A DNA stretch of 64,000 bases, taken from positions 32,001-96,000 of the IMG/VR virus record IMGVR_UViG_651053023_000001, one strand, 5' to 3'. Origin of the DNA: a virus (taxonomy: Duplodnaviria; Heunggongvirae; Uroviricota; Caudoviricetes). The first letter of the stretch is position 1. Each line of letters opens with the position of its first letter. Positions 13,219 through 16,200 of this stretch are shown here, piece after piece. The position numbers are program-made.

Positions 13219-16200
13219 TTAACAGATTCTACGAGTTGTCATTTGTGACAGTATGCTCGCAATCGTAGTGATTACTACCACCAACTGCTAGCTTTCTTCT
13301 CTCTAGCTTTTCCTTCGCTTTGCAGTAAATCTTTACTTCCTGTAGAAATATTTCTATTTGCATCAGCCTCAGACTGAATTACATCTGTCTTAGCTGCTCT
13401 CTCCTTCAACTCCTGCTCTATAAAATCGTTTTCTCGCTGGACACGAGCCGCTTTTGCTTGCAGTTCGAGTTTCATGCTTTCGAGTTGCAGCTTGCGAAGC
13501 TCATCCTCATAAGCTTGATCTCGCTTCTTGTCATTTGCTAGCTCGGCTTCTCGTTTCGCTCTACGTTCATTTTCTGCAGCAACACGCTGTTTTTCGCGTG
13601 CAGCAGCGGCAGATGCTGCTTTTTCTCTTCTAATACGTTCAGCTTGTGCTTGTTGGCGAATAAGTTCTTTTCTGGCATCCTCAGCTTGCTGCTCTTTAGC
13701 TCGCCCTTCATTTTCCGCTTGAGCAATAGCAGCAATTTGACTTTGCAACGAGTTAGCCAAGGCAGTGCCTACACTAAACGTAGAAAAGATTAGAAATAAA
13801 ATAATTTTATTCATAAATTATTTCTTTTCTGGACAAGTAGCATTTGGCTGAATTCGAGTTTCATTATCTTTAGTTGAAATAAGCACAGCAAGCCCCGTTG
13901 TAAACTGGCATGCTTTACCAACTTGAGTTGAAGTGAACACCTTAGTTCCTTCTTTATAAGTCAGTGAAACACCTTCAACAATTGTTTTATCACTAACCAA
14001 AGAACCAGCCGCTGCACCAAGAGCCGCACCACCAGTACCGCCAGCTACAGCACCCAGTGTCGATGTGCCTTTAACATTATAACCGGCAACGCCCCCAGCA
14101 ACAGCTCCCAGTACCGCACCAAATGTCTGTGCCGCTTCTTTATTAGCTTTATTATCAACTTTCACTTTAGCTGGAAGCACAGAGATAATATTGACTGTCT
14201 TTGTTTCCTGCTTCGAATTCAATTGAGCGGTATCATAAACATCGGCAGCATAATCAGCACCGCTAGATTGACACCCAGAAAGAAGAATTGCAGATACAAC
14301 AAGAGCGCATAAAGTATACTTTTTAGACATAAGAATCATCCCAGAAAAACAAAAACCGGCGAGAAGTTACCACGAGAACGGAAAGTAAACAAGAATACTC
14401 CCATTGACTTATATCAATTAATCAACTTTTTATAAGCTATCCCTAACTTATTGTGTATAGCTGAAAAGTCAGAGACAAGTTCACCATCTGCATTATTTCT
14501 TAAGTTAATAGTTTATTGCTAACTTAATTTATGCATCGACTATTGATATCCATCTTAAAGTTACAATATCCCTCTGCATTATTTTTCATCACAAATAATA
14601 TATCTATTGCACGACACTAACCTGCTCTAATAAATTTGTATTTTTAAGTCGCGAATGCTATCTTTTCGCATCATATTGACCTTTTAATCGTTCAGGCTTA
14701 TAGTTTCGCCGTCGTAGCAAATTCTGCGACCGGGTTTAGCAGCCTGAATGATTGTGCGGACAGCCGCAGATATCCGATATTGCGGTATTTTTGTGTCCGT
14801 AAAACCGCGTTACGCCCAAATTATGGTGGGGCGTGATGGGGAGGCTTCGGCCTGCTGGTTTCACAATCGCCAGTCTGCTAACCCCGTCACGTCCTGCCAC
14901 CTGTTTAGCAGCGGGTAGCAGGTTGTTAAACCTGATTGTGAGGCCGTAACTATGGTTAATGCCAATCCTTGCGCACGCCAAGAATTCATCTGGCGTTTCT
15001 ATTCCTGCAAAAAACACCACTATCACTTCGTCATCGCAGCAACAGAAGACGAAGCACGCTCTCAATTGCCTGATGGCCCCTGCATTTTTACTGCCCGTTT
15101 TTCAACTAACTCGCGCAATTCACTTAGTTACTGGAACCTCCCCTTCTCTGCCGACGTTCAGGGGGGTTTATGAAAAAACCTCTCGTCACCCGTAATGAAA
15201 TAGCCGAAGCGATCGCCCTGCATACAACCTGTATGCCGACACGGGAGATCCCCGGCGCAATTGCCAACTATTTCATGATAACCAGGCGTTTTTATACCCG
15301 AACAGATAAGGCTGTGATCAACAAGCTACTGATAGCCGAGATCAGGGATTATTTGATTGAACAAGGACGTCTACGTTACGCAACAGTGGCAGCAGAAATA
15401 AGAAAGGAGGCACATAGAATGACCGGTAATAATTTGAATGTTGAAAAAACAGCACCTGTTACGTCAGCTACGCCAGCACCAGCCGTGAATATCATCCCCA
15501 ACACCGGAGACACAATCGACAGCCAAACATTGTTGAAGATGGTCAATGAGGCACGCAAGTTATGTGGAGAACCAGAGGTTAGAAACAATAAATTCATCGA
15601 AAAAATACTCGATGAACTTGAAGGTGAATTTTACACAAAAAGTGCAAAATCCCATGGCACAAGGGCTGGGCGCTCTTTTGAGGTCATCACCATGACCTAC
15701 AAACAAGCCCTGCGAGTTGCCGCGCGCGAGTCAAAAGCGGTCCGCCGTTCGCTGATCGACAAACTGGAAGAATTACAGCAGGCAAACTCCCCTACCCCAT
15801 CGATCCCCCAGACATTACCAGAAGCCCTACGCCTGGCTGCCGAGTTAGCAGAACAGAAAATGCAGTTGGAACAACAGCTGGTGGCCGCAGCCCCTAAAGT
15901 CGATTTTGCCGACCGGGTATCAGTGGCCAATGGAATCCTGATCGGGAACTTTGCAAAGGTCGTTGGACTTAAGCAAAACGCCCTTTTCTCATGGTTGCGC
16001 CAGAATGGCATTCTCATGGCTTTTGGAGCGCGCAAAAACGTACCGCGCCAACAGTACATCAACGCCGGGTATTTCACGGTGAAAGAAGTGGTGCTGGATG
16101 ATGAAAATGGCTACCAGATACGGCTGACGCCCCAATTAACGGGTAAAGGCCAGCAGTGGTTAACTCGCAAGCTACTTGATGCTGGTTTGTTAAAACCAGT

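What the first reader, a model, noticed from the sequence alone, without database searches (positions are those of the whole stretch)
14600..15175. Immunity region immI with a c4-like antisense RNA and duplicated target sites
Seen: the short target pair GTTTAGCAGC / CCTGA(A)TGATTGTG occurs twice in the same orientation (14734-14756 and 14904-14940), and between them lie the complementary CACAATC and CTGCTAAC (14862-14882). The second target copy sits over the RBS of a 73-aa ORF that is coupled by ATGA to the antirepressor-like gene. This is the layout I recall for P1 c4/icd/ant, where the RNA occludes the icd RBS and so blocks coupled ant translation. An operator-like site lies upstream at 14621.
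Basis: partly seen in the sequence, partly recalled or inferred. Interest (0 to 1): 0.5.

Follow-up and report, generated by a model that had tools for sequence, protein, structure and literature searches.

The report
P7-type immI antisense-RNA immunity module

Summary
The observation and the interpretation both hold. Window 14400-15400 is 98.8% identical to phage P7 and 95.9% to P1 from position 14623 onwards. Their curated annotations map cleanly onto the window:
- C1 operator: 14621-14637
- Promoters P51a and P51b
- Targets a1 and b1: 14736-14742 and 14750-14757
- c4 RNA: 14825-14901
- Targets a2 and b2: 14905-14911 and 14934-14941, the latter running into the GAGG Shine-Dalgarno of icd
- icd: 14952-15173, joined by ATGA to ant1 (15170-16213)

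Rfam scores C4 (69.6 bits) and c4-a1b1 (54.6 bits) above their gathering thresholds. The RNA folds at -44.9 kcal/mol (z -5.7), with b' in a hairpin loop and a' in a single-stranded junction.

The c4 RNA and all four target elements are the P7 alleles, not the P1 alleles. Across 24 P1-group loci and 79 unique family loci, the RNA loops and both target pairs change together.

This is an already-known system, present in 600 sequenced plasmids, so interest is low.

One side observation goes beyond the finding. The a1/b1 leader is the homologue of the Salmonella sRNA IsrK. It is followed by a terminator-like hairpin and U-run that is conserved across the family. I found no paper that makes this link.

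The parts
14621..14637 (+). C1 repressor operator Op(c4)/Op51 (CCTGCTCTAATAAATTT); it overlaps the -35 region of promoter P51a
   Evidence: Maps onto the P7 protein_bind feature 50853-50869 and the P1 feature Oc4. It has 2 mismatches to the consensus ATTGCTCTAATAAATTT. There are 9 such sites in the window against 0.22 expected.
14635..14664 (+). Promoter P2c4 (P51a), the C1-controlled promoter
   Evidence: Transferred from the P1 annotation L002 2513-2542 through alignment A1. The sequence is identical to P1 across this stretch.
14676..14704 (+). Promoter P1c4 (P51b): TTGACC, 17-nt spacer, TATAGT
   Evidence: The promoter scan scores 10 of 12 consensus positions. It coincides with the P1 annotation L002 2554-2582.
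14711..14793 (+). Leader RNA carrying a1 and b1. It has two 5' hairpins, with a1 in the loop of the second and b1 single-stranded, followed by a hairpin (14764-14787) and a U-run (14789-14793). This is an IsrK-like element.
   Evidence: Rfam c4-a1b1 at 14698-14750 scores 54.6 bits (gathering score 46.7). Rfam isrK at 14711-14792 scores 43.7 bits, below its gathering score of 50. Fold. A hairpin plus T-run is present at this position in 79 of 79 family loci.
14736..14742 (+). a1 target (TTAGCAG), P7 allele
   Evidence: Maps to the P1 misc_binding feature 'putative a1 target site'. It is the exact reverse complement of a'.
14750..14757 (+). b1 target (GATTGTGC), P7 allele
   Evidence: Maps to the P1 'putative b1 target site'. 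GATTGTG is the exact reverse complement of b'.
14825..14901 (+). c4 antisense RNA, 77 nt, 100% identical to P7 c4. b' is CACAATC at 14862-14868, in the loop of hairpin 2. a' is CTGCTAA at 14875-14881, in the 3' junction.
   Evidence: Maps to the P7 misc_RNA feature 51057-51133. Rfam C4 scores 69.6 bits against a gathering score of 45. Minimum free energy -44.9 kcal/mol, z -5.7. Identity to P7 c4 shown. Stem covariation in 21 family members.
14905..14911 (+). a2 target (TTAGCAG), starting 3 nt after the c4 3' end
   Evidence: Maps to the P1 misc_binding feature a2. Exact reverse complement of a'.
14934..14945 (+). b2 target (GATTGTGA; pairing extends to GATTGTGAGGCC with G-U pairs). It overlaps the icd Shine-Dalgarno GAGG at 14940-14943.
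   Evidence: Maps to the P1 misc_binding feature b2. A 12-bp duplex with the hairpin-2 loop has a predicted energy of -15.1 kcal/mol.
14952..15173 (+). icd, 73 aa, cell-division inhibitor and translational leader for ant
   Evidence: ORF. P7 and P1 annotate it as an icd CDS. NCBIfam NF033153 phage_ICD_like scores 52.7 bits against a cutoff of 25.
15170..16213 (+). ant1 antirepressor, 347 aa. Its start overlaps the icd stop as ATGA. The in-frame internal start of ant2 is at 15419, preceded by AGGAGG.
   Evidence: ORF. Pfam ANT/KilAC PF03374 scores 106.5 bits. P7 and P1 annotate ant1 and ant2. Sequence read.

Best explanation
This is the immI operon of a P7-type plasmid-prophage, and it works as described for P1 and P7.

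1. Transcription starts at P51a, which overlaps the C1 operator at 14621-14637, and at P51b.
2. The transcript runs through a leader that carries a1 and b1.
3. It continues through the c4 element, the a2/b2 targets, icd and ant1/ant2.
4. The 77-nt C4 RNA (14825-14901) is cut out of this same transcript. In P1 and P7 its 5' end is made by RNase P.
5. C4 folds into a long closing stem with two hairpins, which leaves b' in a loop and a' in a junction.
6. C4 pairs in trans with a2 and b2 on the mRNA. The b2 duplex covers the icd Shine-Dalgarno, so icd is not translated.
7. ant1 starts inside the icd stop (ATGA) and depends on icd translation. Blocking icd therefore shuts off the antirepressor. In P1 this is reinforced by premature termination of the untranslated mRNA.
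8. Without antirepressor, the C1 repressor stays active and lysogeny is kept.

The recognition elements here are the P7 alleles: a = TTAGCAG and b = GATTGTG. The element should therefore confer P7-type immI specificity, not P1-type.

Shown here: the sequence anatomy, homology, RNA structure, complementarity and co-variation. Inferred from the P1/P7 literature: processing, trans action and physiological outcome.
For: Homology
- 98.8% identity to P7 and 99.5% to phi456 over 1 kb; 95.9% to P1 from 14623 onwards.
- Curated features transfer base for base.
- The same segment occurs in 600 PLSDB plasmids.

RNA family and structure
- Rfam C4 scores 69.6 bits (gathering score 45) and c4-a1b1 scores 54.6 bits (gathering score 46.7).
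- The c4 fold is -44.9 kcal/mol against -27.7 +/- 3.0 for shuffles.
- In 21 diverse C4 sequences, 11 of 27 stem pairs show compensatory changes. The unpaired loop and junction, which hold b' and a', are the hypervariable parts.

Complementarity and co-variation
- a' and b' are exact reverse complements of a1/a2 and b1/b2.
- The layout appears in 0 of 2000 shuffles.
- In 9 named phages, every change in b' or a' is matched in both target copies.
- In 24 P1-group loci, a1, a2 and b2 match in 24 of 24. b1 matches exactly in 22 of 24, and in 23 of 24 when G-U pairs are allowed.
- In 79 unique family loci, 79 of 79 have at least 7 nt of complementarity both upstream and downstream. Permuted pairings give 26 (downstream) and 30 (upstream) of 79.

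Specificity
- The c4 RNA is 100% identical to P7 c4. It differs from P1 c4 at 5 positions: 41 and 43 in b', 54 and 55 in a', and 61 in the closing stem.

Proteins and operator
- Icd matches NF033153 and Ant1 matches PF03374.
- The operator belongs to a 9-member site family, against 0.22 expected.

Literature
- Secondary sources state the C4/icd/ant mechanism and P1/P7 heteroimmunity: PMC8198154, PMC12197685 and PMC6906374.
- The RNase P processing paper, Hartmann et al. 1995, is listed in a reference list.
Against: Nothing in the sequence argues against this reading.

Limits:
- No expression data exist for this particular element.
- The c1 gene lies outside the window, so I cannot show that the cognate repressor is present on the same replicon.
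- The operator has 2 mismatches at its 5' end (CC, against TC in P7 and AA in P1).
- The original mechanistic papers were not held in the library. RNase P processing, icd dependence of ant, and Rho-dependent polarity therefore rest on my own knowledge plus titles and secondary descriptions.
Confidence: 0.95

Rival explanations
1. The repeated short motifs are chance matches in an AT-rich intergenic region and have no function.
For: Individual 7-mers such as TTAGCAG and GATTGTG occur a few more times elsewhere in the 64-kb window.
Against: - The ordered layout appears in 0 of 2000 shuffles.
- The 10-mer GTTTAGCAGC occurs only at the two target sites.
- The elements co-vary three ways across 24 P1-group loci and 79 family loci.
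- Rfam hits are above the gathering scores.
Confidence: 0.005
2. c4 is a protein repressor, encoded by the 56-aa ORF at 14748-14918 that overlaps the RNA. Several database records annotate a CDS here.
For: An ATG-initiated 56-aa ORF exists in the window, P7 and JL22. JL22 gp42, RCS47 'transcriptional regulator C4' and X15639 'c4: CDS' annotate it as coding.
Against: - The frame is broken by 1- or 2-nt indels in P1, SJ46 and 673R5.
- The start codon is absent in 813R1, SJ46 and D6.
- Substitutions fall evenly on codon positions (32, 25 and 28), so there is no third-position bias.
- The variation instead preserves RNA base pairs and RNA-target complementarity.
Confidence: 0.01
3. The module has P1-type immI specificity, as the reader's reference to 'P1 c4/icd/ant' might imply, rather than P7-type.
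For: The region is 95.9% identical to P1 and the architecture is the same.
Against: At all six recognition elements the window carries the P7 bases: TTTAGCA against P1 TTTGACA, GATTGTG against GTTAGTG, and in the RNA CACAATC/CTGCTAA against CACTAAC/CTGTCAA. A crude estimate, made by folding the isolated b' and a' segments of c4 against each target region and summing the two duplex energies, gives -28.9 kcal/mol for the window/P7 RNA on the window's own a2/b2. The P1 RNA on the same site gives -19.3.
Confidence: 0.03
4. Besides the classic C4-a2/b2 repression, the a1/b1 leader works as an IsrK-type small RNA. Transcripts from P51b that stop at the hairpin and U-run (about 14711-14793, roughly 83 nt) would carry exposed a1 and b1. 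They could titrate C4 as an anti-antisense decoy. Alternatively, C4 binding at a1/b1 could tune read-through of that terminator, as in P4 CI/seqA. Either way, a1/b1 would set the C4:mRNA balance.
For: - Rfam isrK matches 14711-14792 with E 2.5e-7.
- In 18 of 18 sampled family loci, an isrK hit above the gathering score lies about 25 nt upstream of C4 on the same strand.
- A hairpin plus T-run lies between b1 and c4 in 79 of 79 loci.
- a1 and b1 co-vary with the C4 loops, so pairing with C4 is under selection.
- In Gifsy-1, short IsrK acts in trans to activate translation of the downstream antirepressor operon. A stable processed RNA complementary to IsrK lies downstream of it (PMC4825925).
- The P1 annotation calls a1 and b1 only 'putative' targets.
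Against: - The window's isrK score (43.7 bits) is below the gathering score of 50.
- The terminator hairpin in the P1 group has a 12-nt insertion, and the simple terminator scan did not call it.
- No RNA data are available for P1 or P7.
- A predicted long-range helix resembling IsrK 'structure A' has no co-variation support in the family.
Confidence: 0.3

Closest known systems
Phage P7 immI (Op(c4), c4, icd, ant1/ant2; GenBank AF503408 50853-52448)
   Same: 98.8% nucleotide identity over 1 kb. c4 RNA, a1, b1, a2, b2 and Icd are identical. Gene order and upstream neighbours (upf50.5, upf50.0) are the same.
   Different: There are four point differences in 14590-15180: one in the operator (C for T at its second base), one at 14651, one in the leader at 14706, and one synonymous change in icd. 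ant1 is one codon shorter.
Phage P1 immI (Oc4/Op51, P51a/b, c4, icd, ant1/2; AF234173 48140-49731)
   Same: Same architecture and mechanism. 95.9% identity from the operator rightwards. The promoters are identical.
   Different: All six recognition elements carry the other allele, so the two are heteroimmune. Homology stops at the left edge of the operator (14623). P1 has the sim genes there, whereas the window, like P7, has upf50.5/upf50.0.
Gifsy-1 isrK - STnc1160/orf45 - anrP - isrJ locus of Salmonella (Hershko-Shalev et al. 2016, PMC4825925)
   Same: The layout runs from a leader sRNA with a terminator, through a stable processed RNA complementary to that leader, to a translationally coupled antirepressor. 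The Rfam isrK model matches the window's a1/b1 leader. In loci of that type, isrK sits directly upstream of a C4 hit.
   Different: The window's isrK score is below the gathering score. In the Gifsy-1-type locus L010 there is no separate icd. The published orf45 overlies the C4 element, and b2 overlaps the Shine-Dalgarno of the antirepressor itself. The published mechanism is activation by the short leader RNA, not repression by C4.
Satellite phage P4 CI RNA with seqA/seqC
   Same: A processed antisense RNA cut from the same transcript as its targets, with one complementary site upstream and one downstream. This comes from my own knowledge and from the comparison drawn in PMC4825925.
   Different: P4 CI causes premature transcription termination rather than occluding an RBS. 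No P4 sequence was compared here.

Membership tests
C4 antisense RNA (Rfam RF01695) | Scores above the family gathering threshold against the covariance model | tested here: met
   69.6 bits against a gathering score of 45; full-length match to model positions 1-87 at 14819-14904.
C4 antisense RNA (Rfam RF01695) | A long closing stem enclosing two hairpins, with the recognition sequences unpaired (b' in the loop of hairpin 2, a' in the 3' junction) | tested here: met
   The minimum-free-energy and centroid structures are identical at -44.9 kcal/mol, z -5.7. The consensus of 21 sequences has 27 pairs, 11 of them with compensatory changes.
C4 antisense RNA (Rfam RF01695) | Processed to about 77 nt from a longer transcript, with the 5' end made by RNase P | not testable with these tools
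   Known for P1 and P7 (Citron & Schuster 1992 and Hartmann et al. 1995, titles seen). The window RNA is 100% identical to P7 c4.
P1/P7 immI operon | Targets a2/b2 complementary to a'/b', located just 3' of c4, with b2 over the RBS of icd | tested here: met
   a2 at 14905-14911 and b2 at 14934-14941 are exact complements. The Shine-Dalgarno GAGG at 14940-14943 lies inside the extended 12-bp duplex.
P1/P7 immI operon | An upstream duplicate target pair a1/b1 in the leader (Rfam c4-a1b1 RF03163) | tested here: met
   54.6 bits against a gathering score of 46.7 at 14698-14750. a1 and b1 are exact complements of a' and b'.
P1/P7 immI operon | icd followed by a translationally coupled ant1, with an internal ant2 start | tested here: met
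   ATGA overlap at 15170-15173. Icd matches NF033153 and Ant1 matches PF03374. The ant2 ATG at 15419 follows AGGAGG.
P1/P7 immI operon | A C1 operator overlapping the upstream promoter | tested here: met
   14621-14637 matches 15 of 17 consensus positions and is homologous to the annotated Op(c4)/Op51. C1 binding itself was not tested.
P1/P7 immI operon | The C4 RNA represses icd/ant in trans and is required for lysogeny | not testable with these tools
   Inferred from identity to P7. Co-variation of the RNA with its targets shows that the pairing is under selection.
P7-type (as opposed to P1-type) immI specificity | a = TTAGCAG / CTGCTAA and b = GATTGTG / CACAATC at all six positions | tested here: met
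   Alignment A1 and the identity check.
IsrK sRNA (Rfam RF01394) | Scores above the family gathering threshold | tested here: not met
   43.7 bits against a gathering score of 50 at 14711-14792, E 2.5e-7. The shortfall comes from a 12-nt insertion in the terminator hairpin.
IsrK sRNA (Rfam RF01394) | A short transcript ending at an intrinsic terminator, which acts in trans on its own read-through mRNA | not testable with these tools
   A hairpin at 14764-14787 followed by a U-run at 14789-14793 is present and is conserved in 79 of 79 family loci. No RNA data are available.

The most novel reading that the evidence does not exclude
The a1/b1 leader of P1/P7-type immI, including this window at 14711-14793, may be the same RNA element as the Salmonella Gifsy-1 sRNA IsrK.

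If so, the P1 'putative' targets a1 and b1 would act as a terminated decoy sRNA that counteracts C4. Conversely, the published Gifsy-1 'orf45/STnc1160' would be a C4 antisense RNA. That would unify two systems that the literature I could search treats as unrelated.
Probability: 0.3. Interest if true: 0.5.

Novelty: already known. Interest (0 to 1): 0.12.

Why it matters
For this window, the result fixes the annotation. The element is a P7-type plasmid-prophage. Its secondary immunity should exclude P7-type but not P1-type relatives. The 56-aa ORF over c4 should not be called a gene.

More generally, the census shows that C4 modules are a large, modular specificity system. I found 2 a-alleles and 5 b-alleles in 9 combinations among P1-like elements, and at least 15 a-alleles in prophages.

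The a1/b1 leader equals IsrK. This gives a testable function for target sites that have been labelled 'putative' since 1990. None of this changes the verdict that the finding itself is textbook biology.

Tried and rejected
1. Long-range helix. The fold of the whole leader (14711-14965) predicts a 16-bp helix between the a1 hairpin (14731-14746) and 14919-14934, resembling IsrK 'structure A'. Across 78 family loci with 15 a-alleles, cognate a1-segment/mid-segment duplexes were no more stable than non-cognate ones (median -7.7 against -9.1 kcal/mol, p = 0.99). I dropped the idea.

2. Protein-coding c4. This was rejected.

3. Simple terminator scan. The hairpin and U-run were found only by folding and by the isrK model.

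4. Crude duplex energies for a'. These are confounded by a nearby partial decoy, GGGTAGCAG at 14913-14921. I relied on exact complementarity and co-variation instead.

5. Original P1 papers. PMC524198, PMC312442, PMC196329 and PMC204598 are not held. The phrase search for Biere et al. 1992 found nothing.

6. First parse of the viral loci. The regex was specific to the P1 group and missed 103 of 129 records. It was replaced by a position-free complementarity test.
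Full report
**1. Observation**

- GTTTAGCAGC occurs only twice in the 64-kb window, at 14734-14743 and 14903-14912.
- (T)GATTGTG follows each copy, at 14749/14750 and 14933/14934.
- Their reverse complements, CACAATC (14862-14868) and CTGCTAA(C) (14875-14882), lie between the two copies.
- A layout of this kind appeared in 0 of 2000 shuffles of 14600-15175.
- The second b copy runs into the GAGG at 14940-14943, which lies 8 nt before the ATG of a 73-aa ORF (14952-15173). 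That ORF's stop overlaps the ATG of a 347-aa ORF as ATGA.
- The site at 14621-14637 (CCTGCTCTAATAAATTT) is one of nine matches to ATTGCTCTAATAAATTT in the window, where 0.22 are expected.

Only small corrections are needed:
- The second copy spans 14903-14941.
- The b-flanking strings are CCTGAATGATTGTG and CCTGATTGTG.
- The a-to-b spacing is 7 nt in the first copy and 22 nt in the second.

**2. Identity**

Window 14400-15400 is 99.5% identical to phage phi456 and 98.8% to P7. From 14623 onwards it is 95.9% identical to P1.

The curated P7 and P1 records transfer through a gap-free alignment. The mapped features are:

| Feature | Window coordinates |
|---|---|
| Op(c4)/Op51 | 14621-14637 |
| P51a | 14635-14664 |
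| P51b (TTGACC-17-TATAGT; also found by the scan) | 14676-14704 |
| a1 | 14736-14742 |
| b1 | 14750-14757 |
| c4 RNA | 14825-14901 |
| a2 | 14905-14911 |
| b2 | 14934-14941 |
| icd | 14952-15173 |
| ant1 | 15170-16213 |
| ant2 start | 15419 |
| Op(rep) | 16292-16308 |
| kilA | 16378-17178 |
| repL | 17208-18053 |

Rfam gives C4 at 69.6 bits (gathering score 45) and c4-a1b1 at 54.6 bits (gathering score 46.7). Icd matches NCBIfam NF033153 and Ant1 matches the Pfam ANT domain.

The whole window is colinear with P7 from 36.2 to 94.5 kb at 93-98% identity. The c1 repressor gene lies outside the window. The same immI segment occurs in 600 PLSDB plasmids, mostly from E. coli.

**3. RNA structure and pairing**

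The 77-nt RNA folds at -44.9 kcal/mol, against -27.7 +/- 3.0 for shuffles (z -5.7). It forms a 17-bp closing stem around two hairpins. b' sits in the loop of hairpin 2 and a' in the single-stranded junction.

In 21 diverse family members the same structure is predicted. Eleven of its 27 pairs show compensatory changes. The loop and junction are the hypervariable columns.

a1 sits in a hairpin loop and b1 in a single-stranded linker. b2 pairs with the loop over 12 bp, two of them G-U, and this duplex covers the icd Shine-Dalgarno.

**4. Specificity**

The window's c4 is 100% identical to P7 c4. It differs from P1 c4 at positions 41 and 43 (b'), 54 and 55 (a'), and 61. The matching changes are present in a1, b1, a2 and b2. 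This is therefore the P7 immunity type.

**5. Co-variation as an independent test**

In nine named phages, each of five b-alleles and two a-alleles appears simultaneously in the RNA and in both target copies.

Scanning IMG/VR with the invariant 15-mer ATTATGGTGGGGCGT gave more than 119 loci.
- Among 24 P1-group loci there are 9 a x b combinations.
- a1, a2 and b2 match in 24 of 24.
- b1 matches exactly in 22 of 24, and in 23 of 24 when G-U pairs are allowed.
- Among 79 unique C4-type loci, all 79 have at least 7 nt of complementarity to the RNA centre both downstream and upstream. With permuted RNA-flank pairings, 26 (downstream) and 30 (upstream) of 79 do.
- At least 15 a-alleles exist.

**6. 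Mechanism**

Shown here:
- the operator, promoters and leader
- the structured RNA
- exposed complementary elements
- overlap of b2 with the RBS
- ATGA coupling of icd and ant1
- selection on the pairing

Inferred from P1/P7 work:
- C4 is processed from the same transcript, by RNase P at its 5' end.
- It acts in trans on a2/b2 to block icd translation. This blocks ant translation, and through polarity ant transcription too.
- As a result the C1 repressor is not inactivated.

The sources for the inferred part are as follows.
- Original papers, known to me and seen only as titles: Citron & Schuster 1990 and 1992, Riedel et al. 1993, Heinrich et al. 1994, Hartmann et al. 1995.
- From my own knowledge only: Biere et al. 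1992, for the Rho-dependent polarity.
- Secondary statements I could read: PMC8198154, PMC8546580, PMC12197685 and PMC6906374.

**7. Rivals**

- Chance is excluded.
- A protein-coding c4 is excluded. The 56-aa ORF at 14748-14918, annotated as a CDS in some records, is frameshifted in P1, SJ46 and 673R5. It lacks a start codon in 813R1, SJ46 and D6. Its substitutions show no codon-position bias.
- P1-type specificity is excluded.

**8. Beyond the finding**

The Rfam isrK model hits 14711-14792 at 43.7 bits (E 2.5e-7), below its gathering score of 50. The hit covers a1, b1, and a hairpin and U-run at 14764-14793.

- In 18 of 18 sampled family loci, an isrK hit above the gathering score lies about 25 nt upstream of C4.
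- A hairpin plus T-run is present between b1 and c4 in 79 of 79 loci.
- In the Gifsy-1-type locus L010, the published 'orf45' starts at the ATG inside the invariant C4 5' motif, so it overlies the C4 homologue. b2 there overlaps the Shine-Dalgarno of the antirepressor.

The IsrK paper (PMC4825925) never mentions P1 c4. A 2025 review lists the two RNAs separately. No paper in the searchable library holds IsrK together with 'antisense RNA' and 'bacteriophage P1'.

This suggests that a1/b1 could act as an IsrK-like decoy or as a termination-control site. The suggestion is untested. A predicted long-range helix that would parallel IsrK 'structure A' has no co-variation support.

**9. Verdict**

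The system is already known and common, so interest is low. The IsrK link is the only part with some novelty, and it concerns the family rather than this window.

Noticed in passing
window 14711-14793; loci L009-L127: The a1/b1 leader is homologous to the Salmonella sRNA IsrK (Rfam RF01394). The window scores 43.7 bits, below the gathering score of 50. In 18 of 18 sampled prophage loci, an isrK hit above the gathering score lies about 25 nt upstream of C4. A small GC hairpin plus U-run between b1 and c4 is present in 79 of 79 unique loci. I found no paper linking IsrK to P1 c4.
   Followed up: partly
L010 2837-2974 (- strand), with C4 at 2895-2978 and isrK at 3004-3080: In this Gifsy-1-type locus (isrK, C4, antirepressor, isrJ), the published 45-aa 'orf45' starts at the ATG inside the invariant C4 5' motif and overlies the C4 RNA homologue. 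It ends in ATGA with the antirepressor gene. b2 (ATCACCG) overlaps the antirepressor's own GGAGG. This locus has no separate icd.
   Followed up: partly
window 14736-14941; L001-L008 and the P1-group IMG/VR loci: Specificity is modular. Among P1-like elements, 2 a-alleles and 5 b-alleles occur in 9 combinations. For example, JL22 has the P1 a-allele with the P7 b-allele. The DNA order is a1-b1-b'-a'-a2-b2, so swapping a without b needs several exchanges or repeated mutation.
   Followed up: partly
window 14748-14918 (+): A 56-aa ORF overlapping c4 is annotated as a CDS in JL22 (gp42), RCS47 ('transcriptional regulator C4') and X15639. It is frameshifted or lacks a start codon in relatives and is not a gene.
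   Followed up: yes
window 14340-14623: Homology to P1 ends exactly at the left edge of the C1 operator. To the left, the window, like P7, carries a lipoprotein gene (13818-14339) and a DUF5384 gene (13275-13814), where P1 has simABC.
   Followed up: partly
window 18068-18760: A stretch absent from P7 holds a hok/sok-type element (Rfam sok at 18362-18536, 109.7 bits). It takes the place of P7 rapA, rapB and upf52.1.
   Followed up: no
window 50756-55625: An insertion relative to P7 contains two IS3-family copies flanking IS66-like and Mu/rve-like transposase remnants (52972-54291). Both copies have an ALIL frameshift pseudoknot with the same score of 119.2 bits (51087-51203 and 54653-54769) and a 296-aa OrfB. 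The arrangement resembles a composite transposon, and I saw no obvious cargo gene.
   Followed up: partly
window 29698-31523: A 1.8-kb insertion at P7 coordinate about 66903 encodes an IS91-family (Y2_Tnp plus Zn_Tnp_IS91) transposase of 457 aa.
   Followed up: partly
window 24292-26834: The parA/parB genes (398 and 333 aa) and the adjacent centromere region do not match P7 at megablast level, so this is a different partition specificity allele.
   Followed up: no
window 56356-60513: A block that does not match P7 includes two Ead/Ea22-like genes (57511-58248 and 59242-59997) and two ORFs with no Pfam match.
   Followed up: no
L070 7026 and 7895; L088 794-981 and 10043-10230: Some prophage contigs carry two complete isrK-C4 modules with different a/b alleles on one contig.
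   Followed up: no
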